From positions 62,001-126,000 of the forward strand of contig NW_026920828.1 of assembly GCF_032062105.1 (NCBI RefSeq): 64,000 nucleotides of DNA. The letters run 5' to 3'. Under the pieces are notes generated by a model. The model was not told the origin of the DNA. It saw only the letters and a program-made list of their open reading frames with translations, and ran no database searches. The position numbers and the translations under genes were made by a program. Origin of the DNA: Saccostrea cucullata (lineage: Eukaryota). Each line of letters begins with the position of its first letter. The stretch's first letter is position 1. Of this stretch, positions 12,966-52,913 are shown in pieces.

Positions 12966-15077
12966 CCTGATCAACTTGTATTTCATCAGTCGTTTGTAAT
13001 TTTCAAACTTTATTTGAAAATCATTCTTTTTAGACATGCAATCTATGTTAAAATTTTAAAATGAATTCTCACATAAACCCATATCATTTTTTGTCCACCA
13101 CACATCAATACTCTTATGCAGTATTTTGATTTTATATTCTTTTGTGCAGAAAAACACTATGTCTTCCATTTGACATCTTATTTCAGTTACATTGTATTTG
13201 CTACTTGCATATATATTCTTATGCGCATTACATATTACATTTTTTATTTTCTTTCATAGAAATAATTATATGCACCTTAGATTGATGAAGACATTTTCCC
13301 CCTTAAGTCTTTGCAAAGAAATATACTTTGTAAAGCAACCATAGTCACTACACTGAGCTGAAAACTGTCTAAAACGGTCTCTGCTCAGAAGATGAAAATG
13401 AGGGCGTATGTAACAAATGCGCTTCTTTATAAATTTTTGCTGCAGAACCAATGTAAAAGATGTGGTATTGTTATCTGAAAAGGACACGTCTTTTTACGCA
13501 AAGTGTTCGGATGGATAAAAAGATCCAAATAATGGATGGTGTTACAAGTTTGCAATTGAACTGGACAATCAAAATCTGTTTGGACACCAAAAAAGAAAGA
13601 ACAAAATAAAAACATTTTGCTTATTATTGTAAAGAGAAGCCAGAGCTCTAAAATAGAAACACAGAGGTCCGATAATACATGAAACCATATCCAATGGAAG
13701 AGCTATCAGTGATTTATCTCATGAAATTAATACAAAGAAGAAAGTTTCTTTCAGATAAGTCCAAACGCTTGTACCTGGGTTAATGTTCTTGGGTCTGACA
13801 ACTTTATGACAAATATAAGCTTGGAAATAAAGGACGTTTTGCTGTGGTATTCATGTTGTGTATACAAAAACCCGAGACATTTTTTAAGGTTATCTTTGGC
13901 AGTCTTGAAGGATTTAAAATTTCAAGAAAATGCTTCTTGTGCATTTTCTTATTTTAATACAATTATATTGCATTACTAATTGAAAGTATGTCTGTTGAAT
14001 GCTATTTGTCCATTTTCATGAGGGGAATATTTTTCAAACTGATTTTGTCATAGAAAGTACTATAAATGTCTTTCATTTATGTGTTTCATGATCATTTTTG
14101 TGCAGTCATTGTTTTATATTGACTTGCAGTATTAAACGCTTTAGAATATATTTTTTTTAAAAACACTTCGAAATTTAAACGTTTTCCAATAATGATAAAT
14201 GATCAATATAATATAAGGAAAAATAGAGAATCATAGGTCTTCAAAAGAAGCAAAATTAAAAAGATTTTAGATTAATTATAAATGATATCAATTAATCATA
14301 CACCTCAATTCCTGTATATAAATAAGGACAAGGCTGAAAAAATGACAGAAACACTTAAATTGCATGTGTATAAACTTTTAATGTTCAATCGGATTTGCCT
14401 CTATCATAAATAGTGAATATAATAGTAATGTTATTTACTTTTTTATTTATTTGTTTAATAGAAATAAGAAAATATATTTTCACTAATTGAAATTAATTAA
14501 CACAAGCTTAATTAATTCATAAAATTTTAAGGAAGTTGTGATTACTATGTAAATTTTACCAGATACAAAATAATGTCATGAAAACAATTCATGGAATTTA
14601 ATTCAACAAACGTTCTAGTAGAACTTCACAAAATAATTCAACCGTATATGTCACAATGGCTTTATTTAATAAACATTTATAAACCATTATTACCGCAAAA
14701 TGCATTCATCGCGTGGCTTTGGGATGATATGACAGGTATTTTAGTTTTGCTTTTTGTGGCAAATTCCGACACAACTGAACCAGTGACTTTTCACCACACC
14801 GATATTAATCTTGTTGACTGAGCCATTGTCTTATTGTAGTCCTTTGTACCGAGACATAAGACTTTCCGGATATTCTTCCGCTTGTTGACGTAGGCGTGAA
14901 TTGCCTCAATGCAGAAGTGACTGTTTTTCAGTTATTAATAGTTTGCTCTTAAGTTTCACGAGATGTGAAATTGGACAACAGTGCATAAAAGTACTAAATA
15001 CATTCTTGCCAGAATGAACATTTAAACAGGAAAAAAACCTGAATCTGTTCACTTCGGAATTTATTAACTGAGTAAAT

Positions 15078-18000
15078 ATGAAAGATTACTGTGATCACCA
15101 GGAACACAAACGGGCTTCATCCTCCTCCCTGCAGGAGTCTGAAGTAAAACTCCGCAGGAAAGAAAGAGTGCCGAAATGTTGTGTAGTGGGGGACGGAGGC
15201 ACGGGGAAGACCAGCATGATGATGAAGTACACTCTGGGGAAAATACTCTCAGACTACCAACCAACCTGCTTTGAAAATTACACAAGTAAGTTTACATGGA
15301 ATTCATTCAAATATTAAGATTCGTTCTATTGTGTACCAATTGTTCATAATCTACTCTACATATTGATTTTCAATGTTACTAGTAATGGTTATGTATACCT
15401 TAACCTAGAACGATTATGGGTGACATATAAAATTTTGTTCAATCAAATTCATGTATGATGAATAAAATGTATATGAACTATATAAATATGAAATAAGATG
15501 TTTTAAAGTAATACAAAACCAGTTAACTGATGATCAATTCAAAAATCAAGATTCTAAATACAGCATAAATGATATGATGTTGAACTCATATTGTTCTATA
15601 TGAATGAAGATCAGCCAAAGATTGATTTGAGAATTAGGGACTAAAATATCTTAAGTAGATTTTTATATTTGAGTATGGGTTGGTACATTGTTAAAAAAGA
15701 TAGATAAATAGTAATTTCCGTGCATTGTGTTATCACGAGAAGTTCATTTATTTTTACTCATGTACAGATTCTTATTTTTGAAAAAATACAAGCTTAAGAT
15801 TATTTTTAGAACTGAGTGTAATATTCCCCGTATTAAATGAAAATATTTATCTAATTCAATTCAAAATTAAAATAAGAATTAAAAATAGAAGTTTTAGCAA
15901 TCATTTATTTAAAACAGAAAAAACCGAGAATCGCAGTTTTAACAGTAAGATTTTTTTTAATCCTGAAAGACAGAAACTCCCGGAAGTGTAATTAATATAA
16001 TTGATGTTAAACAAAGAACACATGTAATGCCAAAATGTCAAAAAAATTACGTAATAAACAAAAATAATCATAAGCTGTATTGCATTGCTATATCTTGTAT
16101 TGAATCAATGGGCAATGTAATATTTATTCACCAGTAAAATGTACCTCTGTAGACATATGTAGACCCTTTGGGTTAAATCTGTTTTATTATTCAATTTCAT
16201 TGTCTGATTTGCACCTGAAGCATACAACTTTTGTCAGGTTTCTAATGTCTCGTTGAATGCTGCACAGGTAAATTCCAAATAATTTCACAGGTGTGTCGAT
16301 TATGCATTTCTGAAGGAGCACAATTAAGTTCATTTCTGACGGCACCCGCTACAATATTCATGTCATTGTGATTATTTTAACTACTAATTCATGTCAAGTC
16401 AATCATATCTACTCTTATAATACTCTCCATCAGAATACGGTGCACGTAGGAACGATGATCTTAATTTCTGGGAGAATGCTACACATACATGTACTTTTCA
16501 CAATCAATTTTGGTTCAAAAACGGAAGTTGAGGCTTTTTCACATCAGTTTTTGTTAAAAATTGAAATTTTCTACATTTGTTTTGAATATTCGGGAATTTT
16601 TTTTTAAAATGCAATCCTGAAGAAATTTATATATCTTATTCGTTCTTTCCTTGTAAATCTCAGCTCTACTTCAGAACAGCCGGAATAAGAGTATATCACA
16701 CACATACTATGATAAGTATCAGGGTACACTTCCTGTCTCAGTCGACATTTACATGGTCCCTAAAGTTCATACAAGGTCAGGATTTCCGCTTCCCTGGTGT
16801 TTCTGTTATCTTAGGTTAGACACTCTCCTGATTTCTTTTATAGAATATTAAATCCTTCTTTCTTATAGATCGTGGCATCTGAAGAACTTTTTAAATGTAA
16901 AACGTTCAAAAGTATTTCATCTGACTGTCTTGTTAAATCAAAATAAAATATTGTACTTGTAGTAAAATGACCGAATTCCTGTACTTAAGATAGGAACATG
17001 ATTAAAGCACTAATAAATCTTATACGGCGTCAACTGACAAATATCTTAAATAATAATGCCTGATCAAAGAGTCACCTTTTTGATAAATATAAATGCGATA
17101 TTAATAGTTTTATTTGTCAAGGAATTTCTGCCCATTCATTATCACAGTCAGTATTATTTCTCCTCTTGCACTGTTAATTATGATATAGTTAAGATTTTAC
17201 CTTGAGCAAAGAATAAATTTCTCTTTTTTACGTTTTTGGCAAGATGAAATAACAGACATATGGTGTGTCCCAGTGACTTGTATAAGTGTCTCTCATTCAT
17301 TCAGATCTGAGGGCGTCTCCCGTGTAGAGTTATTAATGAATGTTAAGTGATGACATCATAGAAGAATTATGTTACTAGTGTGTACTTATATACAACACTT
17401 AGTATCACATATATCTACCTATCCAGAGCTAAAATTTAAAGTTTTTGTAAAACATTTTATTATCTGATTTGACACTGATATGCATGTATACACAGATATT
17501 ATATGACATTGAAGCCAATGAAATTTAAAACTACTTTTTTTTAATTGTTTGAATTTTGCATCATGTACTCATGTCGAAATTTAGTACATGTAGAAATTTT
17601 TAATTAAAATGATTTTGATAGTATGTATGCCTATTTATATTTTGTTGAAAGGAAAGATTATAATAAACTTTTCAGAATCTACATAAACATTGCAATATTT
17701 ATACAAAAAATAACAGGAACAAAAGCATGATAAAAGACTCCGTAATGCGTTGTTTATTTGAATTTTTAACACAAGGAAATACAGAGATTGGGTCACTTGT
17801 AAATACAAATCATTTAGTTTATGTGGTAACAAGGAAAAGATTGCATAAATAAATTTTTTTTTTCCGTTTCGATTTTTATTATTTTTAGTTTATGTTTGTG
17901 AGATTTGAGAACACGATTTGGAGCATCGAGTTAATATATTCCTGTTCACGTATACCACAAATTAATTTTTTTAACAAAGTGATAAAAAAAAAAGCTGATC

Positions 18001-18260
18001 GGATGTTTAGTGGGATGTTAACTAGGGTGTGTTTATAAGCAAATGAGAATATAAACCATAAAACTGAAAAGATCACTGATGTATGGTGGACGAAAGAAGA
18101 TATGTGTTTATTTGAGAATTGAGAATACGTGCAAAGTCTAAACATAGATCGCACGAGTATAAAGAATGGTGTTCAAGTTAATTCTAAAAAAAATTAGATT
18201 TAACAAACTCGATTTTAGAGTTTTTAGAAACCGGACTTTGGTTATTGATTGTTGGAAACG

Positions 18261-18295
<35 letters not shown>

Positions 18296-18320
18296 CACTA
18301 AAAATGACCAACGACACGAA

Positions 18321-18352
<32 letters not shown>

Positions 18353-18465
18353 TTGTTCGTGTCGTTGGTCATTTTTAGTGCTTTATATAAATTTCCATCC
18401 GTGACCTTGTATCTACTTGGTAGATCCGACATTTAGGATATACAGTGTTGTTGGTTTTTTAGTGC

Positions 18466-18555
<90 letters not shown>

Positions 18556-19954
18556 ATTCCTGGTCTTTCGGATGAGACCGTATAAAACGAGGTCCCGTGG
18601 CGCACGGAAAAGATCCCTCACTGCTCAATGGCCCCGAGTTTCGAGTATAGGTATATATTTCCAACCCTCTAAGGCAAAGGGGATGGGACGTCTCCATACG
18701 AGCGAAAAATTCGTGAGAGGGGCGTTTAACTACAAACAGGAAAAAGATTTCATTTATTCTTAACCAGGTTCTTGAAAAGAAAATTTTTGATTGACACACC
18801 CCATTTCTTAATCACTGTAAAATTGCATATTTTTGTTGTGCCAAATAATTTAGGTTTGAGGTAAAAATATTTTTGTGGGAATTGGATTTCGTGAATGGAA
18901 AATGTTTATTAGTAATGTATTCAAAAAAAAAAATACATTTCAAGGTGGTTATAAATTCGTGGGTCTCTCCATACCTCAAAATCAACGAAAATAACCCCCT
19001 CCGGAAATTAGTGATTTAAATTCACAGCACCTCTTATTAAAAGAGAATATGGCCTTTTTAGCAAAGGATATATTTAAAATTAGCTCCGTGGCTCTAGAGA
19101 AGATGAGCTAAAGAGTACATTTTTTAAAAAAAATATCTCACGAGTCAGCAAGATCTTGGTTTCCTCTTGCTGCTTCGTATCAGAAAAGATAGTTTTATAC
19201 GAGGAACAAGGATCTTTCTCACTCCATTAATGGCATACATTTATTATACTTAGATATTTGATCATTACAGATTAGTTTTCATTAATTTAAATCATTATGA
19301 TATATTACAGTTGATGTACGGGATGGAGAGAACACACACCAACTTTGTGTACTAGACACTGCTGGTCAGGTAAGTTGTCTAGCACTTCAGTATAACGACT
19401 ATGGATTTATAATTGTTGTTTATTGTAATTTATGTTTGGATTTAATTTTAATTAAATAATCTGAAAAATTAACTTTGAAAAATATGAATGAAATTAATTT
19501 CTATGGTTTTCGGTAAGACTATATATTTGATATTTACTCGGTCTGTTTTCAGGAAACATATGATCGACTTCGAACTTTGGCATACTCCGATACAGATGTG
19601 TTTGTTGTTTGTTTCTCTGTATATGACAGTGACTCGTTTGAAAACGTTAAACAGAAGTGGATTCCAGAAATTAAACAATTTAAACCTGACACCCCGTTTT
19701 TCATTGTGGGGACACATACAGACTTACGTCATTCCGTGGTAGACATTACAAACGATTGTATCAGTACGTCTAAAGGGAAGAAGTGTGCCAAGAAGTGGGG
19801 AGCTATGAAGTATCTAGAGTGCAGCTCGATAGATGGGTCAGGGCTTGACGAAGTGTTCCAGTTAGCTTACTCAGCAGCAGTTTCTCCGAAAAAGAAACGA
19901 CAAACATGGAAAAATTTCAAAGACGCTTTCAGAAGACGCACCATGAAGTTTTAG
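15078..19954 (+). CDS. Atypical Rho-family GTPase 1 (RhoU/RhoV-like), 222 aa, no CAAX
   Basis: Exons 15078-15285, 19311-19369 and 19553-19954 with GT-AG introns join in frame. Motifs: GDGGTGKT, YQPTCFENY, DTAGQETYDRLR, VVCFSV, KWIPEI, GTHTDLR, YLECSS, tail PKKKRQTWKNFKDAFRRRTMKF. Confidence 0.9.
18266..18553. repeat. (TA)n microsatellite interrupted by a perfect inverted repeat with a poly-T spacer
   Basis: Arms TATATAAAGCACTAAAAATGACCAACGACACGAACAAT and its exact reverse complement (about 18287-18389); a third degenerate arm at 18445-18473; TA runs on both sides. Confidence 0.85.
18555..18740 (+). mobile_element. 5'-truncated SINE with a Deu/Nin-type central domain
   Basis: GGTCTTTCGGATGAGACCGTATAAAACGAGGTCCCGTG resembles the Deu/Nin-domain core from memory; the 3' end is shared with 7626-7710. 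Confidence 0.6.
18814..19028. mobile_element. Degenerate MITE-like element
   Basis: CTGT...ACAG ends with repeated TTTCGTG/ATTCGTGG and (A/C)ACGAAAAT-type sub-motifs; weak support. Confidence 0.35.
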
Positions 19955-21764
19955 TGCAATATAAGTACAAATTGTTTATTGATATGTTGACATTATACAG
20001 ATTTTGTATATTTTGATTGTTTCCGTTTATTGTTGTGTTACCAGTACGACAATGTTTATGGTACAAGTGCTATTTCACGAAATCCACAAATGAAACAAAT
20101 TGTATTGTCTGTTAATTTTGAAATAAATACTGTTTTGAAAAAGTATAACTTTGCATGTATTTTAAAAACGTTGGGTGTGGATGATCAGTGGGAGATGCTT
20201 ATTCCTCGTTGGGTCCTGATCCCATCTCTTTGTTTCCAGATGACCCGTATTTTTGTCCTGTTCACAGTTCCTCTTTAAGATTGTAATTATTTCTTACTTG
20301 TTTTAATGTAACAGAGAATGCAGGGAAATCTTTGAAAAAGTCCACAGAACATTAGATCCCGTATCATTGTAATTTACGGGTATATGTTTACTTTAGTTTA
20401 TTCAGAAATTTATTTATATAATTTGCAAAGTAGCTGATTATTACCTTGACAATGATTAATAAAAAGAGAATCTTCATATTTTATTTATTTCGGATGAACG
20501 AAGAAAATTTCTTCCTTAAGGTTCCTTATACTGAAATATGTTATATGTACGGAAAATGATTATTTGGAATCAATCTGTTGGTTCTTGCCAGCAAAGCTAT
20601 AGATACCGTCATTCTTTATCATTAAGAAGTCCTCCTTATTTTAAATGGAGTTTGCATCCTATTTTTGCTTCAGACATTCCCTGACTCTTGCTTCGAATAT
20701 CTAAGAGAAGTCAAGCTCAGAATTCTATTGAAACAATACAAGTTGGGACCAGAGCAAACACGGGTCCTAAACATCATAGGTTAAAAAAGATGTCAATAAG
20801 GTGAAACCATCTCCTGTCACACTCGCCATGTGCTCGTTATTCTGATTAGGATAATAGGAGAACCGTTGTGCAAGTAATTGTTTAACAATTAATTGGTATG
20901 TAAAACACTACCCAACACCCAAGTCAAAAAGTAGTAGGGAAATTCTGGTGGTGGTTTTAATGACCTTTTATGCAACTTCAATGCACCATTGGGTCGCTTT
21001 CTGAGTGAGATCATACTAATATTTATCTATTTTTTTTAAATTATGATTTGGCATTGCAGGAATAATTTATTCCAATCCATACAAAGGGCTCACGGCAGAT
21101 ATGAACTGTCAGTAGGGGATTTTTCTCTTTTAAGGTTCTTGACTTATTCTCTCGTGCTTCTAGAAGTATATGCATTATAGTATTTACATGAATTGACCTC
21201 AATTCATATATTTTCAAGACAAATTCAGTGATGTCCACGTGATTAAGAAAGAATCATACTAGATAATATTCTGTTGTAAAGCAATTACTGCAAAAGTGAA
21301 AACCGATATAGTATGTATTGTATTAAGTAAATCAAACAAATCTTGCTTTTTTTCAAAGGTATTTATTTTTAATAAATCTACTCCAAAGTTTTAATACAGG
21401 GCTTTTTTCGATGATAAAACTAAAATTTTAATTTAAAAAAAACAAACTAAAATGAAGTATTATATTATAAAAATTCAAGCAACTATACTATACTATATGT
21501 TTCAGGCCAACAAATGCAAAGAAAGGTAACTCAAAATTAAAAATTCTCACAAGTCACAAAGTTAGTTACCAATGGCATGTTCTTTTCAAAACTCATCATG
21601 TTAAAAGTATTTTATGGCGTAAATTGTCAAATAGAAAATATTTTCAGGAAACTTGAATAAAATCACCATATTGTCATATTAAAAGAAATATCAACAACAA
21701 CTAAAAAAAAGAATCTAATTGTCATTGGATTATTAGTTATTTATAAATTGAATAAAGAAACACA

Positions 21765-24240
21765 TGGAGATAACAAACAGTATTCAAGATCGAAAGTCCA
21801 TAAAACAATACAAAATAGGAGCAGAGCAAACACGGACCTCCAAAATATCAGAGGTGGGATGGATAAGGTGCCATTGATGAGATACACCCCTTGTCGAACA
21901 GTCACACCAGCCGTGTGCTCCTTGTCATGATCGGGAAATAACGAATATCCGTCGTCAATTCAGTGTATAAATAATGGACTAACAATTAGTATGAAAAACG
22001 TCAGTCAGCGTTTTATTCAATGATAATGTATTTGCTGACAAGGTCATTGTATCGACCAAAGAACTTACGAAATGATTACTTTAAAGCAGACTGCTGATAT
22101 TCTTGTTTCATCAACTTGTTGGTCAATAATTTACCTCGTTTTAGAAATTGTTCATACGTAGAGCATGCTCTTGCGTATCAAATCATCTGAGATACATAAA
22201 TTCTGTATGCAGGTGATGAAGGTATATTGCTGAATAAGTAAGGGAAAAGCCGATAGAAAAGTTAAAGTCATCACTTTTATCATAGAGCTTCGTTGTTAGA
22301 TTGACATTAACGTCTTTTTCAAGTAAAATATTCTTATATGAAACAGATGAGATAGACTCTGTAATATCATTTATCTTAAGCTCACCAGGATATATCGTAT
22401 CGACATTAGAATGGAAATTACAATTATTGATTGACAATACGTCGTCGATATATCTAAATGTCGAGTTGAAGGCCAAGCAAGTATTTTCTTCTTTTCACGC
22501 ATAAGATTTTGCACAAATTCTGTTTCATATGAATACATAAATAGGTCTGCTAAAAACGTGGCGCAGCTGGTACCCAAGGGAATTCCAAAAGATTGTTGGA
22601 AGACCTGCACAACATATATATTGTCAATCAGAAACTCAATTATCTTTTTGATGTCGACATCAGAGTACTTGTGTGTACAATCAGAATGTTTTTTATCAAA
22701 ATAATTTTGCAAATGACCAGGTAAGTAAAATAACGAGTTCTATTTTTATTGAAAAAGCAGCTGTCAATGATATTAAAAAGCATGGACTTTAATTTATCGT
22801 AGGGAATGGTTGTGTATAAAGTTGAAAAGTCGGAAGTTTTTAAGCTGTTGATTTTGGTAAAATCTTGTGATTTCAAATTGTCTAAAAGTTCCTTGAAATT
22901 TTTACGTATCCACATCTGATTTAACCACTCCTTGAATATATTGTTGCACTCTTGAAGTTTTTCATTCACTACTGTTAATATGAGGAGTAAAGAAAGAGAC
23001 TTGGTTGAACATTTACTGGAACTGTCTATGTATCTTTGGAAGCATTCTTATGAAGTATCGGAATCCAATATAAATATGGTCGTTCAAAATCATTTTGGTT
23101 CTTCGGGATATTAAAAATATTCAAAATTGACATATGATTTTGAGGTATTTCCTCCTTAGAAAGGGAACTATGAGTATAAGTTGGATTGCCACTTGTAGAA
23201 TTAAATCCAAGTTCTTTTAAAATACAATTTTGTTGAGACTTGCAAACAAAGACAATGGTGTTACCCGCTTTGTCAGCAGGGACCGTGTAATTTATCTAAT
23301 TATTTATTCACTTCTGGATTATTGAATACAGAAGGATAGATAGTTTTCATATTGCCCCTCAATCTTTTAATACGCGAGTTCAACATGGACCTGATACATT
23401 TAATCCATTATGACAAGGTGTCAACGTCTTCTTTTTCATATCTGGCCTATCGCCTGGCATTATCTTCAAAGGAATCCATAATATTTATGAAATTCTGACG
23501 CCCGTTCAAGGATCAGGGTTCTCTATATTTAGAATCTTTTAAAATAAGTGATGTAAGGTCCTCATTAGTAACTATATTTACGTCACCTGTAATAACGTGT
23601 CCAGCAGGACTATAGTTATAGAGCGACGAAGAAAATGTTTCATATACTCGGTATCCAGGTTGTGTAAAGTTTTTTTGTAATTTAAAAGTTTTGAAGCAAT
23701 GGTCGATTTATATTTGTAGGAAATACAAGGTGTAGTCTTTAACTTGAAATATGGTGGAATACAAGACTGGACCCTTTTGTGATTAAGAATATTACTTATA
23801 TTAACTGCGTGAATTCCTTTATTGGCATATTGAAGTTTAAGGGAAAGACATATTGTTTAGCTGCATTTTCTTCGATAATACGTGTGGGTTTAAAAAGCCT
23901 ATGACTTGCAATATCAATAATCACAGATCCGAGTCTATTTTCTGGTGTCGAGGAATCAAACAATGGGTTTTCCTTGATTTTTTCAAGAAACTATTTAAAG
24001 TTTCAAAGGGACAGAGTAAAGTTTGGAGCGAATATGATGTAGACCTAACGTTTGAATAACATAAGGTAGTTATTAATAAAAAGAGACATTATGTAGTAAA
24101 GGTTTATTGTAAGACCGATGCCCATGACTCCGCTTACGTCTCTGTGTATGGTTAAAATGTCCCATCACATTTACACTGTTACACTGTGGACTGGAAAGAT
24201 TTCCAACGCTATCGACATTGTCATTACATCCATAATATAA
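21765..24240 (-). mobile_element. Decayed, 5'-truncated Penelope-like retroelement of Naiad type (C-terminal RT)
   Basis: Frameshifted minus-strand motifs in order: YGCNDNVDSVGNLSSPQC...RRKRSHGHR; SPAGHVITGDVNIV...KYREP; PADKAGNTIVFVCK; PYLYWIP.LHKN; DFSTLYTTIP; GIPLGTSCA..LADLFMYSYE; FRYIDDVLSINN; KLYDK.DDFNFSI. The 3' module follows, with no endonuclease after the RT. Confidence 0.85.
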
Positions 24241-24934
24241 ATTGTTCAACATTCGATGAAAAAACTGCTCAAAAATTTACATAGAAGCTAAATTTATGAT
24301 GGACTATCTATTTTTATGGACGGATATTTCGAAGAAAATTCTGCATATCTGCACATTTATTCAATTTCATATCTTGAAACTTTAGCCTCACATACTTTTA
24401 CTCGGAGAATATTTTTCCGTTATGATATGCTAGGAAAATCAAATATGGGTCTCAATTTATGTTTTTAGAACAATTTTTTCACCTTCCCTCAACAAACTTT
24501 GCCGAAAATGAATATTTCAGGGAAAAAAATTTTAAACTAAGAGGTATCAAGTTTGCTCTTTTATGAGGTACAAATATCAATGATATTCCAACCTCAGTTG
24601 CATACGACCTTTTTGACTCCCAGCTTAACTCTTAACTTCTTCCCTCAAGAGCATGCTCCGAATACGAATAATTTTTAAACCAAGACAATTGCAAGATGCA
24701 GTGCGGAAAATAAATTAGTATTACAAGAATCAATAAACCTATTCAATGTCAGCTTTTTGCAATGACCTTGATTGTAAAGATGTATTATTGCTTGATTTGT
24801 TTTAAATCAATTTTTAAAACTTGGCAGATTATTTCATCTTTTACATTATTTGTTTTACACTTTTCGTATTGTCAATCCTTTTATTCTAAGTTTACTAAAT
24901 TATCCGTCTATCAAGTCAATATAAAGGGTTTACG

Positions 24935-27508
24935 GCCGGTGTAAAGACGAAACGTGACCCCCGTAGAATATTGACCGGGGGTCATTTTTCTACGTAGAAA
25001 TTTGACCCCCTGGTCAATATTCTACGTAGAAAAATGACCCCATTTTTGGTAGAAACTATGGCCTTGGGGTCATTTTTCTCTGTGTGCATTGTAGAAAAAT
25101 GACCCGGTAGAATAATGACCTCTTGTCATATTTTGATGTAAAAACATTCGTTTTGGTAGGAATATTCTTGTTAGACGAATGCATACAGATAATATCAAGC
25201 AACCTTTTGATATGAAGTGTTCATTTTTGAAAGTTTTTAAGCTTAAATAACGAAATCAAAGCTATACTATGCTACACTTTACATTAATAATACAAACCGT
25301 TTTATCCCCTATGAAAGAAAAACAATATCTATTAAATGTTCAATGGCTAATAGAGCAAAGATACGTACATTTATAGATTTGTTCATTACATTTTATACAA
25401 TAGGTTTCCACAGTTGTCATTTAAATCTTTAAAAAGGTCATTTTCTAGTTGATGTCAGAAACTAAATTAAGTTAACGTTTTTGATCCCTACTTTTAAAAC
25501 TGGCGCGAAAAAGGGCACTTGCTTAGAAAATTGGATGTAATAAAAACATTTTTTTCTATGAATAAAGTTTTCAAACTTCTCATTAAAAGAGGGATGATTT
25601 AATTTGTAAAAATAAGTACTAAATTAAATTGCCTATGACCTATGATACCAGGGACACAAAAAAACGGAAAGCTCAACACCTTTAAAATGTCTTTGTCGTT
25701 TGCTAGTGTCAACAAAACCTTAACGAAATGGGGTTGTTGCATAAAAAATGAATACTAGTAACTAAAAGAAGAAGTGCTCGTCTTACCAAAATTTGGCACA
25801 TGTAATTATATAAAAATTAATTGCGCTTTATTTCTAAATTTTCTTTTGTGAGCGTTTTTAAAATCGCTAAACTTTCATCTCGCTAAAAAAAATACCATTT
25901 TTTAAAAGAGAAATCGCTAAATTTGGATCTCGCTAACATTTCCACTTATATGTATTAAATGCATGCCCCCGTAAACCAAGTTTCGGGGATATGTAGTTTT
26001 TAGCTGTCCGTCCGACTGTCTGTTTGTCCGTAAAAACTTTAATCTTGCCCATAATTTTAATTTGACTGGGTGGGACCATGACTTTCATATTTCATGATCA
26101 CAGGTGTATTTTTTGTGACAAAATCTTTCTTTGGGTACAACCAATTTTGACCTAGGAGTTTGACATACTTTTATGCAATAATTCCAAACTTTTAATCTGA
26201 CCTTAATTAAGTTTTGAACGATTTGTGCTAGGACTTTAGATATCGAAATAATGACATGATAGACTAAGAGTTCATTTGTTTTTGCAAAGTTTGTGTCAGA
26301 GAAAATCTCAAATGAAATGGGATGTTACAGCTACCATTTGTCAGGGGTCTGTGGGCTAAAAAGTGTGGGAAAAAGTTTTTCAAAATGAATCTATAGACAT
26401 CTGAGAAGGTTGACTTATTTTTCACTCAGATGTAAATTTTGGGGGATTTTTTTAATTCATCATAAGAACGTTCTTGATGTGTATGGCATGGAGGAGTGAG
26501 CATACCTTGCTGTTCGGTCACACCCACCGTGTGCTCCTTGTCATAATCGAAAAATAACGGAAAAATCTGTCGTCAATTCAGTGTATAAATAATGGAATAA
26601 CAATTGGTACGAAAAACGTCAGTCAGCATTTGACTCAATGATAAACTGTATTTGCTGACAAGGTCATTGTATCGACCATAGAACTTTCGAAATGATCGAT
26701 GACCAGTACTTTAAACGAGACTGCTGATATTTTTGTTTCATCAACTTATTTGTCAATAATTTACCTCGTTTAAGAAATCGTTCATAGGTAGAGCATGCTC
26801 TTGTGTATCAAATGAATTGAGATATATAAACTCCATATGCAGATAATGAAGGTATATTGCTGCGTAAGTATAAGAGAAGTTGACGATAGAAAAGTTAAAG
26901 TCATCACGTTTATCATAGAGCTTGGTTGTTAGATTACCATTAACGTCTTTTTCAAGTAAAATATCCAAGTATGAAATAGATATGTCAGACTCCATGGTAT
27001 CTTTTATCACTAGCTCACCAGAATATATCGTGTCATTTTCGGAACAAAACCTTTGAATTATTAAAAAACACCCAGTATACTAGTAATGATAAATTTATGC
27101 TCCTGAATTAGTTAATATTCATTGGGATTCTGTAAGCAAAAAAAAAAAAAAAAAAAACAATCCATACCAGATACATTGCTAATGATGCTTCTATTAAGAT
27201 ATGCAATCAAATATATATTGGGAAGGAATAAAGTACATTCCTCCTCCTTACATTTGAAAGTATAAAAAAAAATATCAGGAGACACAGATAAAAGGTTTTA
27301 TTGTATGAAAAAGTAGGGGGTCAAATTTCTATGGGGGTCATTTTTCAACGTGTGTGGAGTCGTAGAATTACTGGTCTGGAATGTTTTTCTACAGTCGAAA
27401 AATGACCCTACTTGTCGTAGAATATTGACCAGGGGGTCATTTTTCTACGTAGAAAAATGACCCCCTGGTCAATATTCTACGGGGGTCACTTTTCGTCGTT
27501 ACACCGGC
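24935..27508. mobile_element. Non-autonomous TIR DNA transposon with long, internally repetitive TIRs; hosts nested insertions
   Basis: Left end GCCGGTGTAAAGACGAAACGTGACCCCCGTAGAATATTGACC matches the reverse complement of the right end GCCGGTGTAACGACGAAAAGTGACCCCCGTAGAATATTGACC; sub-repeats GTAGAAAAATGACCCC occur in both orientations; no clear TSD. Confidence 0.85.
26485..27032 (-). mobile_element. Naiad-type PLE 3' fragment nested in the TIR element
   Basis: ORF 26753-27010 (SYLDILLEKD...KLYDKRDDFNFSIVNF) plus the 3' module. Confidence 0.85.
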
Positions 27509-28125
27509 GAGACTTGATGACAGGGGAGGCTTCCTCCATCTTGGTACCTGAACCCTGCTCCTGGGGTTTGTGCCATTACCCTGTTAACGATTCGAGATCG
27601 AGAGAGAGATAGAGAGAGAGAGAGGGTGTTCATTCTACCTGTAATTTCCACTTTTTGACAATCAGGTAGGAAACGGCAAGAATTCATGTGGGAATAGGTG
27701 GAATTTTTGTCTTAACAAATAATTAACTATGAAAACATATAACTTCTATGTTTTAAACAATTATCAACAATTATTGATTACCTGTTGAAATAGAGGACTG
27801 ATATATTTACTTTATAGAATTATAAATACGACTTTTTTAACTAATATCTTAAAGCCATATAAGTAAATTAAATAATTTTTCACAATGTTCATTTTAAAAT
27901 CCAGCTATTTCAATATATTTTCCCCGACAAATCTATTTATTTTATGTTGTAGAATCAAGATATGAAAGTGCTTATTCTTGTAAGACTTTTTTCTTTGTTA
28001 TTTTCTCAAATCCATAAAATTTAGTAATAAATGAAATAGTTCATATTTTTCATTCATTTAGTCGTTATTTTCTGTCTTAAAATGTACAAAATACAGATCT
28101 ATAAATCTAAGAGGGAACGTATTAA

Positions 28126-28464
28126 AGCCATATATGGCGTATGTACAATGAAAATTATTGGACTAAAATTATAAGAACTTATTATTTGTATCATTACTTT
28201 ATAAAAAGATAGAACTTTTCCGTAAATTACAAAATCTAAATCAATTGCGTTATAAAGATATCACAATTTAATTTGGATTCTCGGAATTTTCTCCGACTCG
28301 GAAGAAAATACAAAAGATTTAAAGAAGATAAAATCGTATTATTAGATGAAACGAGATGTTCTCCGCGTTCAGAATTGTATGAAAAGCTTTAATTTAAATG
28401 TATCAACTATATTTTGTATTTTTCAAAAATATATTTTTTTCTATCAGTTACGCCATATATGGCT
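28126..28464. mobile_element. Kolobok-type MITE
   Basis: Perfect 16-bp TIR AGCCATATATGGCGTA flanked by TTAA on both sides (28122-28125 and 28465-28468); AG...CT termini with a TTAA TSD fit Kolobok. Confidence 0.8.
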
Positions 28465-28510
28465 TTAAAGTGGGAATAGGTAGAAGACACCGAGAGAGAC
28501 AGCATTTTAT

Positions 28511-29090
28511 TACGAAAGCCGGATAGGCTCATTTCTGAGTAGATAAAAAAATTTAACGCGTTATAACGAGTTAGTTATCTCGTTATAACGAGTTTTAGAA
28601 TTATTTCGTTATAACGACTTAGTTTTTTCGTTATAACGAGATAATTAACGCGTTATAACGAGATAAAAACTGGTCTAAAGTTGATAGATCTAAGTGATTG
28701 TAAGTATAGCACATAAAACCGAGTCGATCAAGTTTGTTTAAAGTGTGTATGATATAGATTTTATTGAAAAGCAGGAAACAAGTTATTTTTTTGTTTTTCG
28801 AGAGCCTGTGCCTGTGACTGTAGTTCGCTTATGTATAAACAATGCGGTTGATTGTTTATTTAAAAGACCGAATACATGTATAAGGAAACTTATGACTGCC
28901 TCGTGATGCTGTGTTATGAGTGGGCAGTAGTCCCCGAATTGTAGGCCCATGACCTAATTGCTGATGTCTCCATATCCCTCTTCTTCAAAACATTTCTGAC
29001 TCTCAAAATAATATATATCACACTGTGAGTTATAACGAGTTAAATGGTTTATTTTTATCTTTTCAGAAATGAACCTATCGTGCTTTCGTA
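28511..29090. mobile_element. MITE with ~28-bp TIRs and an internal CGTTATAACGAG repeat array
   Basis: TACGAAAGCCGGATAGGCTCATTTCTGA matches the reverse complement of the right end TACGAAAGCACGATAGGTTCATTTCTGA; five or more palindromic CGTTATAACG units; the terminal TA may be the TSD. Confidence 0.8.
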
Positions 29091-30238
29091 TTTTATAGAA
29101 CTGTTAGGGGCAATTATTAGTAATTACACAGAGTAAAAATAATTTGTTATCTGACTCACGTATCAATGACCCTTCGCGCGATTGAAGACGAATTAGATAG
29201 TCCAAAAAGATTCGAGGGCAACCCGTAAAATATGTGACTCAGGTATTTTTTACTGTATAAGAATGTCTATAATCTTCAAGAGAAACGTGCATTTTGCACG
29301 CATTCTCTTAAGTTGATAAGACTTAGCACAGATTTTAAAGAAGAGGCCGAATTGATAAAGATTGTAATAAATAGTAACAAAAGCTTTTTCTAATTCTTTC
29401 AGTAAACAAACAAAATTTCAAGATAAAGAACGCGAAAAGTGATCGATCCTCAAAGATCTTAAATTATTGTATATTTCAAATCAGCAATTCGCTAATCCTC
29501 TTTATATAGAGATTTGTATAAAACAGTAAAAGTATTATGTCTTTACTATTGGTGTTATAGTTATGTTATTTTATGGATTTATTAAATAAGAAAAGTCAAT
29601 GTAAGAAAATAAAATAGCAATTACACCTACACAATATTATCAACTTCAAAGCCAAGTAATTGTAAAATTATACAGTGCTTTTGCTTCTAAAAATTTTGAA
29701 CACGTAAAAAAAAACAATGGTTGAAGAATATTGATGCTAAGACTAGAGAATTCATACTTTAAGTCAATCCGGGAGAATATGATGTTAATATACGTGGATA
29801 GAACACCTGACTGTTTCTTTAATTTTCCTGGATTTTTTTTCAGTTATCATCATTAATTTTAAACAATATCTTTATTGAGACAAAACAATGTAAATAATTG
29901 ATAAAAAATATTTAAATCATCACAGATATCATGCATAAATACACATAACACATATCACTGCTTTTTTAAGCATCTAACAATAAATACTATAAATACCATG
30001 TATTTCATCACACACGATCATTTGGACAACTATTGCTACAAAACAAACAGCTATACTGATAAGACTCTAATTCATCAACCTTGTTTTACTTACAGTAATA
30101 AAAGTAAACCATTTTAATAATACCATTCAAAAGAACCAGCATTGTAGGTTTTAAAATTGAAACAACCTGCATGTACATGTTCAACACAAAGATAGATTTG
30201 TAAGTACACCACCTTCTTTTCAATCTTTTAAATATCAT

Positions 30239-32690
30239 CTACAGAATGACACACGATAAGGCATCATACAATCCATCCCTGGGATGAAGAACTGTCCCGA
30301 TAGCTTTGTTTAACACCCTCTTCATCTTCTTCTCCAGTTCGGGAGAACTTTCAAAAAACCTAGAAGCTCCGATTTTTCTGGCCATTTGGAATCCTTCCGA
30401 AGAACTGATACTTTTTTGCCCATTTTGTCTTAAATTGAATTGAACAGAACAGTCCATTCGGAGATCTGTCTGAGTTCCCACTAAGATTATAGGAACATCA
30501 CCTAAGCAGCTTTTCAGATGAGGCGCCCATTTTTCTTCCACATTTCTAAATGACGTAGGCTGAACCACCGAATAGCAGACGACAACAATGTCTGCGCCAG
30601 GTAGAATGTGAATACTGTTCTCCTGATCTTTGTCCTAAAATTATTTTTTTTCAAAAACAAAATTAGGAAAATGGAAAATATCTATGTAAAAATCAGCTGC
30701 ATTTTTTTTTATTTTGTGCTAAATTTTTGATGAAGTTTATTTCTATAACAGTACAAAAAGGTATTTTGTGCACAGTATATACACAGTTATCTATTTAATA
30801 TGCATGCGTATCGAAACATATTTCGATTTTCACTTCAATTTGTTTATTTAGAAATAGATAAACAATAAATAAACATTTTGAACCTTCTTAGAAAAATGTT
30901 TGACCTTTTTTATTTTAATTTTGTTTGTTAGAAGTACATCTTTTTTCACTGACTATACATTTCTATGTCTACCTTATACAGCAAATCGGTAATCCTTTCA
31001 TAATCATGAAAAGATAAATTTATTTGTAAAAAGAAAGTAATTCAAATTTACATATTTGTGTATTTGTGAACTAGACTTACAAGCCCTTATCTTATATTAA
31101 AGAATATGCAAAGAAAAAACGTCTTATAGAGTAGAATGAAAATTAGTCGGAATTTGTCAAGTGGACACCGTGGGAAAAGTTTATCAAATATTGACTTAGT
31201 GTGAAGGACAGCCCCAAACATTCTTTATAATCTAGGTATTTATTTATAGGTAACCTTGTTTGTTGTTTAGATAATTTTCAGATTACCCTGCCTATTTTCA
31301 ATTTGTGAGATCGTTTCAAAGGATTGTAAAACGCTGATATCTTTACGCACTGGATGTGTGTTTAGCGAAATCGTTTTCAACATTCCATCTCTATCAAACT
31401 TATAGAATTGAGGAGTTTGCATACTTCTTGTAGCTATTTATGTATTACATAATAAAACAGATTAGAGGGTCTATCTATTTATATTGATTAGCAATCACAG
31501 ATAAAAGTAAATGGCTGGAGAAGGGTAATATATTAAAGAGAGAGGCCTTAGGGTGAATGGGTGGTCCAGGTGTTTAACTTCTCTCTTTCTTGGTGGTATG
31601 ATTAGTTACAATTGAAGGGGACAGTTTATGGTTTTCTTTTGGCTTTTCTATAGTGTAAAAGAAAGTATAAAACGCAAGGTCTAGAGCAATAAGACTATAG
31701 TTAGTGGACCTTGTTTGCCCCCCCCCCCCCAAAAAAAATGTTATTCAAATTACTTTCTTTACAAATGTTACAAAAACAAATTGAAATCGAACTAAATCAA
31801 ACAAATTTGAAGAAAAAAATATTCAACATGGTAATAATATATAAGAAACTTTTTAAAAACTACTTTAAAACATAAGTGCAACTTAGCCTATAATGTAAAT
31901 GAACTCATTCAAAGACATTTGTAATGAATTTTCTTAAAATAGAAGTTCACAGATAACAGAAAAATTTGAAACTTGCCTCTTCCAGGGTGTCGAGAAGTTG
32001 CAGATGATATTTTTTACCAGACATTTCTAAAGTCCCTGCAAAATAGACAAACCATTCAATTATCATCCGTGCATTACACTTAGGAGAGTAATATTTAGAA
32101 GCCAAACATGTAAAGAGATTGCAGGAAAATGTTTTAATTCTGCGACTTTCAAGCTTAAGATATATCATCTTAAGAAAAGGCACAGGTGTTTTCAAAACTA
32201 TATGAATAAAAATGTTTATTAATAGAATACATATCTTGGCATGCTTACGTGATGTGTTAATTATAATGCTGTGTGCTTTTCTGTTTATCTAAACACGCAA
32301 TATACAGCTCCCAGCAAGCTAGATTTTATGTCCAAATTTTCGAAGGCTTTCTTTTTTTTTATCGTACAACAATTTTGATTTAATGCTCCAATTAAGATAC
32401 ATGTAATAGTGTAACTATACATTTGTTCAAATATTCACTGATACTATTGATTGAAATTTATAATAAACTTAAAAGTAAAATACTTCTTTGAAAAAATTAA
32501 AAAAAAATCGACGAGAAAAAATGTCTGTTTGTTCCAGAAAATGATAATTACCTGCATAGTTATCAAAAACACTAGGCACGTGCTTCGTGGGGAATCTGTT
32601 TGTAGCGTAATTCACAAGCAAACTTGTCTTCCCAACGGAATCATCCCCTAAAACAACACATTTAATTAAGTCCGAACGAAGAACCACCAT
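30239..32690 (-). CDS. Atypical Rho-family GTPase 2 (Cdc42/RhoU-like, predicted hydrolysis-deficient), 197 aa, CAAX CVIL
   Basis: Exons 32690-32552, 32035-31977 (GC donor AG|GCAAGT) and 30634-30239 join in frame and align gap-free to Cdc42 from I4 through the Rho insert: [49 protein letters not shown], full Rho insert, CVIL. Confidence 0.87.
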
Positions 32691-34439
32691 CTCAACTCTA
32701 TGAAGTTTGTCATTCACTAAAAAAATTAAATTCTCCCGTAATCTAATCTTTGGATTGCACCATATCGTATTGTTGACAATTCTCTTTGTTTACATCTGTA
32801 CACGCGCAAGCAGACTAGCGTATAGATTTGAAGGATGTCACGTGATGTTCAAAACTCGCCCTCGCACTATTTACCTATATCATGTGGAATGCAGAAAATC
32901 CACAGGTGGAAAATAAACACAATTTAGAAGGGATGTGTCTAAGTGTCTAAATAATGAAGAATCGTTGCATGGGCGTCCTGTGGTCATTATTACCGATAGG
33001 ATCGTACGGTTTTATCACGGATTTGATCAGCCGTTATTCTGTTAGATATGAGTTTGTACTTCAAAGTCTTTTTTAAAATAACAAAAAAAAAGTGAAGAAA
33101 AGAGTATCTTTTCTTAATGCTGGACAATATATACCTACTTTAATATTTTCGGAGTTTTGAGTATACATGTATAAATTTGAATGTAAAGGAAAGAGATATT
33201 GAACATTTTCTAAGGGTTATCTGGTAGAAAATAAAATGATTCATCTTAAAAAATAATTTTTTATCCATTCTTAGGCACAACATTTTACAGATTATACCCT
33301 AAACCTTTCCAATTACTTTTAGTTATCACTTCCTTTCGTTAATAACTATATTTTTGGTACTTTCATCTGGTTCCATAAATGTTATCTGTTATTATTTGTA
33401 ACGAATCATTTAATTTGTCTCATATTGTTTGTATCATTTTTCAGTTCATGAACTTTACATAACCCAGGAAAATTAAGAAACACATAAAATGTTGTTTTTT
33501 TTTAATGTTTAAAAATATTTTGAATAATATTAGTTTTATATGAATTTATTTGGCACATATAAATATTCATTTATATCTCAAATAGAATTAAATTGCCTAA
33601 AAATAACATTATGACAACGTTCTTCCAGTGGGTACAATTAATAAATAATTAGAAAAAATGTAACAAGAACCGAGTTTTTGCTTTCACTACAGAATTTCTG
33701 GATACTTTTTATGTGAGCTTATACTAAGAGAGTTTATGATGACCTTTCAATTCCAAATACTAATGGATGTCCATTTCTAGACTGAGAAAGATGTACATAG
33801 TATGCAACAAATTACGCATCAGTTATACAGTATACCCGGTATATAGGTCAGTATGTCCTGTGATATATTAAAAGTAAACACAAAATAATTGGTGGGATAA
33901 GAGTATCAAAGTGTTAAACCAATCCCATGACGGTGATAATAATATCAACATTCAGAGTCACACACTAGCTGAACTACCTCTAAATTTGCGTTGTGGTTCA
34001 CCCTGGACGATCAAGTGCATTGTACAGTTTGCAGTAATATAAAAGATAACTCTTAAATTTTAATTAAACTTTTTTATTTGCTTTTGTTTTATTTTTTACT
34101 TGAAAAATAAAAACTGAGAATTCTATGAAGTATTCATAAAGAATAGTTTTCTATTCTACATTGTCTAGAAATATTGATAAAAGCGTAATAAGACACAAAG
34201 TCGATCGTTTGATAGAGCTTAAGATAATTTCTGGCAACATAGACAGCTGCCTTTTTCAATAAAAACTGAGCTCACAAATTTACTTACTTTGTTATTGGCC
34301 CTTTGCAAAATTATTTTGTTACAACACAATTAGTCCGAAATTTATATATAAAAAAAAAGAACACTTGAACTTCTGGTTGATAATATCTATACCGTTTTTT
34401 GTGGTTATGTGTACAAACGATCTTTTTTTCCTTCATAAA

Positions 34440-41744: not shown

Positions 41745-42349
41745 AGCTGCTGCTTCTTTTCCTTAGAAAGCCATATATCAATATCGGTAGCTGCCTTTTG
41801 TTTTTCCAGAGCCGCCTGCTCTTCCAAGAATTTAAGTCTTGTTTGCTGGGTCTCCGCTTGCACTCGTTTTTTGAGTATTTCTGATATTGTCTTTGAGGCT
41901 TGTGATGAAGTCCCGGATTTCACTTCAAACTTTTCCGAGAGTCGTTCGGCTGCCTCTAATAGTTTATTATGTAGGACATCTCGAAATGTGAACACTACAT
42001 CGGAATATGTGCTATACTGAGACTCATGCTGCTCCAGTTTCTGTAGAGCTTGCTCTGTGCGTGCTCTTCCAAGGAAGTTTGCTAGGGCTTGACTTTCTTT
42101 AAGGTACTGTTTGAATTTTGCATTTATGTGGTCTTCTGTTGTCCTTAGGTATTTCCTGTCTGTATTGTCACCATCACAATTTGCGATGAGGTCCTCTACC
42201 TCCCTCCACGCGCTAGTGCACTTTTCTTGTAGATCAAGGAACGTTTGGTCAAAGGATGCCTGACCCTTCTCAGTAAGAGTCCGAATCCTGGATTGTTTAT
42301 CATCCTGTTCGTCTTTGACCTGTTGTTTCTCCCCTTCCCCTGTTGCCAT
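41726..42349 (-). CDS. N-terminal coiled-coil part of BEL/Pao Gag, separated from the main ORF by a 1-nt frameshift
   Basis: Starts just inside the 5' LTR; charged helical sequence; adding one base at GAAAAGAAG (41757-41760) gives a continuous KEKEAAAVANAEV. Confidence 0.8.
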   Translation of the reverse strand: MATGEGEKQQVKDEQDDKQSRIRTLTEKGQASFDQTFLDLQEKCTSAWREVEDLIANCDGDNTDRKYLRTTEDHINAKFKQYLKESQALANFLGRARTEQALQKLEQHESQYSTYSDVVFTFRDVLHNKLLEAAERLSEKFEVKSGTSSQASKTISEILKKRVQAETQQTRLKFLEEQAALEKQKAATDIDIWLSKEKKQQLWQTQK

Positions 42350-42384
42350 CGTCCTACAGGTTGTCCCTGGTCATAATCTTTTAC

Positions 42385-52220: not shown

Positions 52221-52913
52221 ACCCCCCCCCCCCGGTTCCAACACCTATATATGGTATAAAAATTAAGAGTTTCTCTATTGTAGTTTTGTAGTTTTCAAAC
52301 AATAAAACCCCAACCTTAACTAAGGAAATAAATTTAGTTTTAATGGTAATGCAGTGCAAACTGTACCAAAATAGTAAATACTGCTATTTCAGGTATTATG
52401 ATGAAATGTCATTCAAAGTTTAATGTAGCAACAGCTGCGCTTATTGAAAAGGCTATAGAAAAGCATATTTTAAAATGAAAAGAATTATTGGATTTGATAT
52501 CCCATGTAAGCTCAAATCTTCCTAAGATTTGAAGTGACCGTCGGTTCAAACCAGTCATGGGGCAAATAGCGATTCACCTTAATTTGGCGTTGTCTGCCCC
52601 TGGAAGTTGTTTACAAAACAACACTCAAGCAAAGAGTAAAGACGTGGTTACATCTGGTACAGAACAAGGAAATCAGTGAAATTCTAATGGATAACTGTGA
52701 AAAATTTAATGACTTTCCTCGAACAGACGGTAGACATGGTAGAGTTTCCCGGAATAATTGTATGTTCTGAATTTTAACATAGTGCGATGACGATGGAATG
52801 CCATCCAGTTGATCGGACGGTTACTCAAGAAACAGTCTGTGTTCAAGTGTGTTGCATTGTTAAGATGTTCAATTGACAGTTATTTTGTTGTTGATCTGGA
52901 GATATTTGTCGGA

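What the first reader, a model, noticed from the sequence alone, without database searches (positions are those of the whole stretch)
15078..32690. Convergent pair of divergent Rho paralogues with identical gene architecture and complementary defects: candidate uncharacterised signalling module
Seen: both genes have three coding exons, a 59-nt middle exon and introns at the same positions (phase 1 after residue 41, phase 0 after residue 61), and lie tail-to-tail about 10 kb apart. One keeps the catalytic residues but loses lipidation and nucleotide-retaining residues; the other keeps CAAX and F28 but loses the catalytic residues and switch II. From memory (to verify), RHOU/RHOV share this three-exon layout. 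Inference: an old local duplication produced two different routes to GEF/GAP-independent Rho signalling, in parallel with vertebrate RhoU/V and Rnd/RhoH. Any link to the adjacent GPCR trio is speculation.
Basis: partly seen in the sequence, partly recalled or inferred. Interest (0 to 1): 0.7.

Follow-up and report, generated by a model that had tools for sequence, protein, structure and literature searches.

The report
Mollusc-wide switch-broken Rho GTPase subfamily
Two real, expressed oyster Rho-family genes sit tail to tail, but they likely come from different branches and are probably not a working pair; one belongs to a subfamily found across clams, oysters and snails that has lost its GTP-cutting residues and is predicted to act as an always-on switch.

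Summary
Both genes have three coding exons, a 59-nt middle exon and the stated intron phases, and both are spliced in RNA. The layout does not mark them as a pair: oyster Tc10 (RhoJ/Q), RhoU and four more divergent Rho genes have the same exon. A and B are 32% identical, and they grouped in 0 of 300 bootstrap trees in two datasets. AU tests did not reject the grouping (p 0.14, 0.11). Gene B is the more interesting gene. It has orthologues in 14 bivalve and 9 gastropod genera and groups with Tc10/RhoJQ. In 34 of 34 sequences G12, A59 and G60 are replaced and A159 is P or T, while the P-loop and switch I stay conserved. It is predicted to be a GTPase-deficient, GEF/GAP-independent Rho, arisen apart from Rnd/RhoH. 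Gene A was found only in oysters, a pearl oyster and one unnamed record. It groups with a large CAAX-less oyster radiation and is predicted to be fast-cycling, with a basic amphipathic tail. A module or a GPCR link is unsupported. Neither gene is in the published bivalve Rho catalogue. No biochemistry was possible.

The parts
15078..15285 (+). Gene A coding exon 1 (208 nt; P-loop, switch I); phase-1 intron follows
   Evidence: splice joint 15285-19311 read in 4 of 4 runs
19311..19369 (+). Gene A exon 2 (59 nt), ends on the Q61 codon of an intact DTAGQ
19553..19954 (+). Gene A exon 3 (switch II, G4, insert 6 residues shorter than Cdc42, G5 with A159S, basic amphipathic tail, no CAAX); 3' UTR read to about 20270
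32552..32690 (-). Gene B coding exon 1 (139 nt; P-loop with D12, conserved switch I); 5' UTR read to about 32794
31977..32035 (-). Gene B exon 2 (59 nt), ends on codon 61 (DTLEE in place of DTAGQ); GC donor follows
30239..30634 (-). Gene B exon 3 (degenerate switch II, intact G4, G5 with A159P, no polybasic tail, CAAX CVIL); 3' UTR read to about 29812
19955..30238 (.). 10.3-kb spacer between the stop codons; holds both 3' UTRs, which do not overlap, and repeated non-coding pieces

Best explanation
These are two expressed atypical Rho GTPases that likely come from different branches of the Cdc42/RhoJQ group and probably work independently: B is predicted to be a prenylated, GTPase-deficient, always-loaded Rho, and A is predicted to be an unprenylated, fast-cycling one. 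Gene B heads a mollusc-wide subfamily that likely arose from Tc10 (RhoJ/Q). Shown: G12, A59 and G60 are replaced and A159 is P or T in every full-length orthologue aligned; the P-loop, G4, switch I effector loop and CAAX (31 of 34) are kept; switch II drifts freely. Inferred: B binds GTP, cannot hydrolyse it, exchanges nucleotide without a GEF, ignores GAPs and most GEFs because switch II is gone, and signals through switch I. It would be controlled by expression and turnover, like Rnd and RhoH. With CAAX but no polybasic stretch it would likely favour internal membranes. Gene A keeps the catalytic residues but has lost F28 and A159. Inferred: it reloads GTP spontaneously, like RhoU/V, and reaches membranes through a basic amphipathic C-terminal helix. 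Their adjacency is most likely inherited gene order in oysters.
For: B range: top hits and cluster members name 14 bivalve and 9 gastropod genera. B residues in 34 full-length sequences (several per genus): position 12 D29/P3/E2; position 59 never A; position 60 never G (E28, D4, S1, Q1); position 61 Q in only 14; position 159 P31/T3; G10, D11, G15, K16, T17, P29, F37, D38, N39, D57, D118 invariant. The register at 57-61 is anchored by the exon 2 boundary in the window's gene. Mean pairwise identity in 22 orthologues: P-loop 88%, switch I 83%, G4 77%, switch II 26%, whole domain 55%. The model keeps the Rho fold (pLDDT 79.7; residues 66-72 under 50) and matches Rac1/TC10/Cdc42 at TM 0.77-0.84. 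Changes at 12, 59 and 61 define GTPase-deficient Rho proteins (PMC9029563, passages). RAC3 G60D strongly suppresses hydrolysis and still binds PAK1 RBR (PMC9473360). RHOA A161P, the position equivalent to 159, is fast-cycling with reduced hydrolysis and binds effectors in the GDP state (PMC11339415). Trees: B is one clade (100/100); B+Tc10-like+RhoJQ 92/85, 267 of 300 bootstraps; A with other divergent oyster genes 89/93, 265 of 300; A+B 0 of 300. A in 7 sequences: G12, T35, A59, G60, Q61 all kept, F28 is I or M, A159 is S, no CAAX; the tail has net charge +7 to +10 and hydrophobic moment 0.75-0.86 (3 sequences scored), against 0.40-0.50 for Cdc42, Tc10 and RhoU.
Against: No biochemistry was done; every activity is inferred from mutants of other GTPases, and B stacks several changes whose joint effect is untested. 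T35 is S in 24 and T in only 3 of 34, and switch II is lost, so classical CRIB binding may be weak or absent. AU tests did not reject A+B as a clade (p 0.144, 0.114) or B+RhoU/V (p 0.053). Backbone support is below the starred level, and A's grouping with long-branch genes may be long-branch attraction; without them A was unplaced. By raw score both proteins are nearer Cdc42 than TC10. Rnd, RhoH, RhoD/F and RhoBTB were not in the trees, and the Atlas's top feature hit for the Pinctada A protein was a cluster named RhoE (0.97). A's range may be underestimated: it had one word-limited search, against a profile search for B. A and B share a chromosome-length record in four oyster species. The model of A is poor (pLDDT 62.3; tail helix under 50).
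Confidence: 0.62

Rival explanations
1. B is a pseudoGTPase scaffold rather than an always-on switch: it binds nucleotide weakly or in one fixed state, cannot sense the gamma-phosphate, and offers its conserved switch I surface to a dedicated partner, or competes with Tc10/Cdc42 for effectors.
For: The DxxG glycine is absent in 34 of 34, T35 mostly S, switch II 26% identical, A159P. RHOA A161P shows impaired nucleotide loading. RAC3 G60D had marginal SRF and no NFkB output.
Against: GKT, D57, G4 D118 and an aromatic residue at 28 are kept in 34 of 34, which argues for a used nucleotide pocket. RAC3 G60D still binds PAK1 RBR.
Confidence: 0.25
2. A and B are relics of one old tandem duplication of a Tc10-like gene that stayed together but evolved separate jobs (shared history, no module).
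For: Same intron positions; tail-to-tail in both genome copies; near-consecutive RefSeq numbers in S. echinata and the same chromosome-length record in O. edulis and C. virginica; AU p 0.11-0.14; the A-containing and B-containing clades are sisters (90/85).
Against: 0 of 300 bootstraps twice; 32% identity, lower than A or B shows to Tc10, RhoU or Cdc42; the layout is shared by six other genes.
Confidence: 0.2
3. One reading: A and B form a coupled signalling module with complementary defects (for example a heterodimer in which B supplies the lipid anchor and A the catalytic switch), perhaps tied to the neighbouring GPCRs.
For: Physical linkage in oysters; both transcripts present in 4 of 4 runs laid (three P-coded studies, and the runs were found with B).
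Against: B occurs in many molluscs where no A was found (the A search was less sensitive). A has its own likely membrane anchor. Both have pocket changes at 159, so the defects overlap. Convergent orientation, no transcript overlap. Depth in the best bin was about 113 (A) to 21 (B) in X21 and 24 to 9 in X22, and contig depth favoured B in X5; this is weak evidence, as the tool warns. The GPCR region is not beside A on C12572.
Confidence: 0.1

Closest known systems
RhoJ/RhoQ (TCL/TC10), bivalve Tc10
   Same: Three coding exons with a 59-nt middle exon and the same intron phases (oyster Tc10; identity as CgTc10 from S1 Table of PMC4669188). B groups with Tc10-like and RhoJQ sequences; B exon 1 is most like Tc10 exon 1 in the genome (69%). 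CAAX.
   Different: Tc10 keeps G12, DTAGQ, ECSAL and a basic tail; B has lost all four. The oyster has its own intact Tc10 elsewhere (G000:C6735).
GTPase-deficient Rho proteins (Rnd1-3, RhoH, RhoBTB)
   Same: B has substitutions at positions 12, 59 and (in 20 of 34) 61, the defining positions given in PMC9029563; it is predicted to be regulated by expression and turnover.
   Different: B branches from the Cdc42/JQ group, also lacks G60 and has G5 proline. Bivalves have separate Rnd and RhoBTB genes with 4-9 exons (Table 1 of PMC4669188). Rnd and RhoH were not in my trees. That Rnd and RhoH keep G60 is recalled, not checked.
RhoU/RhoV (Wrch1/Chp), fast-cycling atypical Rho
   Same: Same three-exon layout. 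A keeps the catalytic residues and lacks F28; B has Y at 28 in 11 of 34 sequences.
   Different: Neither gene joins the RhoU/V clade (A+UV 2, B+UV 0 of 300). A true RhoU is at G000:C22457. A has no C-terminal cysteine for palmitoylation.
Cdc42 (the usual database label, 'cdc42 homolog')
   Same: Best-scoring solved structures for both; TQxD-type G4; 50% (A) and 46% (B) identity to oyster Cdc42.
   Different: Oyster Cdc42 has introns after codons 96 and 162 only, none shared with A or B.
Tumour and disease mutants RHOA A161P, RAC3 G60D, RAC1 F28L
   Same: B carries natural equivalents of A161P and G60D; A lacks F28.
   Different: Here the changes are fixed and conserved across genera rather than somatic or de novo variants, and several are combined in one protein.

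Membership tests
Rho family | Ras-type G domain with Rho insert; nearest structures are Rho proteins | tested here: met
   Pfam Ras; top 60 PDB hits all Cdc42/TC10/Rac; insert helix 128-136 in the B model; A's insert is 6 residues shorter
Cdc42 orthologue | Cdc42 intron positions and clade | tested here: not met
   Introns differ; A+core Cdc42 in 30 of 300 bootstraps; B outside the Cdc42 clade
RhoU/V | Three-exon layout | tested here: met
   but the layout is not specific to RhoU/V
RhoU/V | Falls in the RhoU/V clade | tested here: not met
   A+UV 2 of 300, B+UV 0 of 300; B+UV AU p 0.053, borderline
RhoU/V | Tyrosine at 28 and palmitoylated C-terminal cysteine | tested here: not met
   A has I/M28 and no terminal Cys; window B has F28 and a CAAX
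RhoJ/Q (Tc10) lineage, gene B | Shared introns and grouping with Tc10/RhoJQ | tested here: met
   (92/85; below starred level); 252 of 300 with Tc10+Lineus
RhoJ/Q (Tc10) as a classical cycling GTPase, gene B | G12, A59, G60, Q61 and polybasic tail | tested here: not met
RhoJ/Q (Tc10) lineage, gene A | Grouping with Tc10/RhoJQ | tested here: inconclusive
   Introns shared; unplaced; in a clade sister to JQ+B (90/85)
GTPase-deficient class, gene B | Substitutions at 12, 59, 61 | tested here: met
   12 and 59 in 34 of 34, 61 in 20 of 34; definition from PMC9029563
GTPase-deficient class, gene B | No GTP hydrolysis, GAP/GEF/GDI insensitive, GTP-bound in cells | not testable with these tools
   needs purified protein
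Fast-cycling class, gene A | Intact 12/59/61 with a weakened guanine pocket | tested here: met
   7 of 7 sequences
Fast-cycling class, gene A | High intrinsic exchange rate | not testable with these tools
   needs kinetics
Rnd / RhoH / RhoD-F / RhoBTB | Phylogenetic membership | not tested
   No such sequence was in the trees; none appears in the top 60 PDB hits; Atlas lead 'RhoE' for A conflicts with A's intact G12/A59/Q61

The most novel reading that the evidence does not exclude
Molluscs evolved, before bivalves and gastropods split, their own GTPase-dead Rho subfamily from Tc10/RhoJQ. It has lost the DxxG glycine and switch II and fixed a G5 proline, so it is a natural, conserved stack of disease-type activating changes that signals through switch I alone. 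Genome annotation hides it as 'cdc42 homolog', next to an uncatalogued radiation of CAAX-less Rho-like genes that includes gene A.
Probability: 0.55. Interest if true: 0.6.

Novelty: new variant of a known kind. Interest (0 to 1): 0.46.

Why it matters
The published bivalve Rho catalogue lists 9-12 genes per species and calls the family conserved (PMC4669188). B has orthologues in scallops and Pacific oyster, yet motifs of A and B were not found in that paper's supplements. If B behaves as predicted, it is an independent origin of a GTPase-deficient Rho. It would also be a natural test of whether a Rho can signal without switch II or G60, and of how A159P-type changes act when selection keeps them. 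The paired-module idea would matter more, but it is the part with least support.

Tried and rejected
Architecture as proof of a pair: rejected after modelling other oyster Rho genes. In that script the anchors for A and B were out of frame, so A gave a wrong model and B none; the trees used RefSeq proteins P0038 and P0022 instead. Metagenome scan for A loci: 80 loci kept, best segment identity 24-49%, no orthologue, no synteny data. Exhaustive profile search with oyster B: 3 of the best 150 were B-type by their motifs and seeded the wider search. ESM Atlas: generic Rho clusters; two Mollusca-rich clusters for B could not be opened. First tree (73 rows): the careful search did not finish, so only the quick tree was seen; K02, K05, K06 and one Rac-like gene were left out. 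Second tree left out all other divergent oyster genes; third held 8 of them. Oyster Rnd was sought in seven more loci and not found. Earlier findings: three look-ups, nothing returned. No complex prediction was run, because no binding is claimed. Two wanted papers were not held (a pseudoGTPase review and a Rho evolution paper). A 'rhoj' gene upregulated in clam D-larvae (PMC9768464, one passage) could not be tied to B; its supplements were not read. A search for papers on polybasic amphipathic anchors gave nothing I read, so that mechanism rests on recall.
Full report
Observation. Gene A (+) has exons of 208, 59 and 402 nt and codes 222 residues. Gene B (-) has exons of 139, 59 and 396 nt and codes 197 residues; its second intron opens with GC. 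In Cdc42 numbering the introns fall in phase 1 after residue 41 and phase 0 after residue 61 in both. The products equal named RefSeq Saccostrea proteins, labelled 'uncharacterized' (A) and 'cdc42 homolog' (B). I laid 4 of the 24 runs listed. They are 90-99% alike to the window, so they come from a related strain or species. All four joints were read, including the GC intron. Transcripts end near 20270 (A) and 29812 (B) and do not overlap. Neither gene is a pseudogene.

The architecture is not special to the pair. A search of the own genome with A's exon 3 gave 44 matches. I modelled 21 other Rho-like genes from fetched DNA (models not checked against RNA). Six have the same two introns and a 59-nt exon: Tc10 (C6735), RhoU (C22457), C13073, C8711, C13386 and C20703, the last two with one more intron. 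C1324 modelled with a 65-nt exon at similar positions, less surely. Nine of ten genes in a cluster on C13111 keep only the intron at 61, and one only that at 41. Cdc42 has neither. The Tc10 and RhoU names rest on close resemblance to CgTc10 and CgRhoU in S1 Table of PMC4669188 (compared by eye), whose Table 1 gives 3 exons for both (I read the first three of six parts and searched the supplements). So the layout marks descent from the RhoJQ/UV side of the Cdc42 group, not a local pair.

Relationship of A and B. They are 32% identical over 170 residues, less than either is to Tc10 (43%, 41%), RhoU (40%, 41%) or Cdc42 (50%, 46%). In a 40-row tree without the other divergent genes, B joined oyster Tc10 and a Lineus protein (85/72), and A was unplaced. 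In a 36-row tree with eight of them, B sat inside Tc10-like plus RhoJQ (92/85) and A with the divergent genes (89/93). A+B appeared in 0 of the 300 bootstrap trees read, of 1000, in each set. Against this, AU tests did not reject A+B (p 0.144, 0.114), the backbone is not starred, long branches may attract, and Rnd, RhoH, RhoD/F and RhoBTB were absent. Sisterhood is unsupported, not excluded.

Gene B is an old molluscan subfamily. A profile seeded with three distant hits returned 1145 proteins, 120 listed. The top ranks are B-type. With cluster members they name 14 bivalve genera (Saccostrea, Ostrea, Magallana, Crassostrea, Mytilus, Pecten, Argopecten, Ylistrum, Mizuhopecten, Potamilus, Sinanodonta, Mya, Mercenaria, Mactra make 14; Solemya is a further one) and 9 gastropod genera (Gigantopelta, Haliotis, Lottia, Littorina, Bulinus, Aplysia, Nucella, Babylonia, Elysia). 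No named non-mollusc, cephalopod or chiton B-type protein was among the 120; the Lingula and Lineus hits keep DTAGQ and ECSAL. Eleven unnamed fragments among the top rows were not inspected. In 34 full-length sequences positions 12, 59 and 60 are never G, A and G, position 159 is P in 31 and T in 3, and CAAX is present in 31 (the three Mya records differ). The P-loop (88%), switch I (83%) and G4 (77%) are far better conserved than switch II (26%). The fold is intact, with low confidence at switch II.

How B likely works. Shown: the residues above. From papers: changes at 12, 59 and 61 define GTPase-deficient Rho proteins, which escape GAPs, GEFs and GDIs (PMC9029563, passages; PMC13236570, passages). 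RAC3 G60D loses hydrolysis yet binds PAK1 RBR (PMC9473360, passages and one section). RHOA A161P has 9-10-fold higher off-rate than F30L and binds effectors with GDP (PMC11339415, abstract and passages). Inferred: B loads GTP unaided, does not hydrolyse it, and presents switch I to effectors from a prenyl-anchored, probably internal, membrane; its tail has net charge 0 to +1 in three sequences scored. The main rival is a scaffold that no longer senses nucleotide, since T35 is mostly S and switch II is gone.

Gene A. The one search made (13 candidates) found clear orthologues in oysters, Pinctada and one unnamed record. All 7 tabulated keep G12, T35, DTAGQ and switch II, replace F28 and A159, and lack CAAX. 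The tail is basic and amphipathic; the model draws a helix there at low confidence. A short insert, no CAAX and a basic tail also mark the C13111 cluster, C13073 and C8711, and five more loci end in a similar tail. A is therefore likely one member of a wider CAAX-less group. Inferred: fast cycling as in RhoU/V or RAC1 F28L, with membrane binding by the tail (mechanism recalled from CAAX-less Ras-family proteins, not checked in a paper).

Linkage. The pair is tail to tail on a second contig, C12572. No species outside oysters gave both genes. In Mya and Mactra, B shares a chromosome-length record with an intact Tc10-like gene, which fits its origin weakly. The three GPCRs are real, but C12572 shows no match to them in 18.8 kb upstream of A, although they start 5.4 kb from A in the window.

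Literature. Eight searches were made; five concerned Rho evolution or molluscs and returned no description of either gene in their listings. Four A/B motifs had no hit in the 8 supplements of PMC4669188; spaced-letter sequence files could hide a hit. PMC7600811 (passages) lists no such mollusc gene and notes, citing another paper, a cnidarian RhoUV with G3 changes, a precedent for loss of hydrolysis in an invertebrate Rho. Key Rho-evolution papers in subscription journals could not be read, so an earlier mention of B is possible.

Verdict. Observation confirmed; module not supported. The result worth keeping is a conserved, apparently uncatalogued, predicted GTPase-deficient Rho subfamily of molluscs. 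It is a new variant of a known kind. Interest 0.46.

Noticed in passing
G000:C13111:297990-407950 (L031-L043): Cluster of ten divergent CAAX-less Rho-like genes in about 110 kb, two coding exons each, most with changed G2/G3 motifs and a basic amphipathic tail. Expression not checked.
   Followed up: partly
G000:C2151, C18977, C12579, C10105, C3064 (L153, L155-L158): Five more CAAX-less Rho-like loci with one intron near residue 41 and a degenerate G4; some are probably allelic copies.
   Followed up: no
G000:C13073:125800-126730; C8711:12900-13830; C13386:397280-402030; C20703:621510-627350; C1324:79900-82740: Further divergent Rho-like genes with the same middle exon; two pairs group strongly in the trees.
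   Followed up: partly
window 31976-31975 (- strand): Intron 2 of gene B uses a GC donor, confirmed by spliced reads.
   Followed up: yes
window 270-1871, 4049-5719, 8210-9700 (- strand): Three tandem single-ORF rhodopsin-family GPCRs with long third intracellular regions; not found beside A on C12572.
   Followed up: partly
window 45460-46602, 52791-54083, 59808-60932 (+), and G000:C2965 near 128393: Tandem array of at least four similar MFS transporter genes.
   Followed up: no
window 36444-41762 (-), with upstream ORF 41729-42370: Pao/Bel-type LTR retrotransposon with a 1773-codon open frame; a repeated stretch near 35600 and 42300 may be its LTRs.
   Followed up: no
G000:C12572 against window 14146-33433: Second copy of the gene pair, 84-97% alike in its main collinear blocks, with no match to the window upstream of A: an allelic haplotype with a structural difference, or a duplicate.
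   Followed up: partly
proteins P0077, P0233, P0234 (Mya arenaria): Three B-type records on one chromosome, with P at 12, T at 159 and no terminal CAAX.
   Followed up: no
proteins P0271, P0283, P0279, P0282: An intact Tc10-like group in clams, Lingula and Lineus labelled 'cdc42 homolog'; may be Tc10 itself or a second lophotrochozoan paralogue.
   Followed up: partly
L009, L010 (G000:C21937, C12276): Intronless RhoA-like open frames, possibly retrocopies.
   Followed up: no
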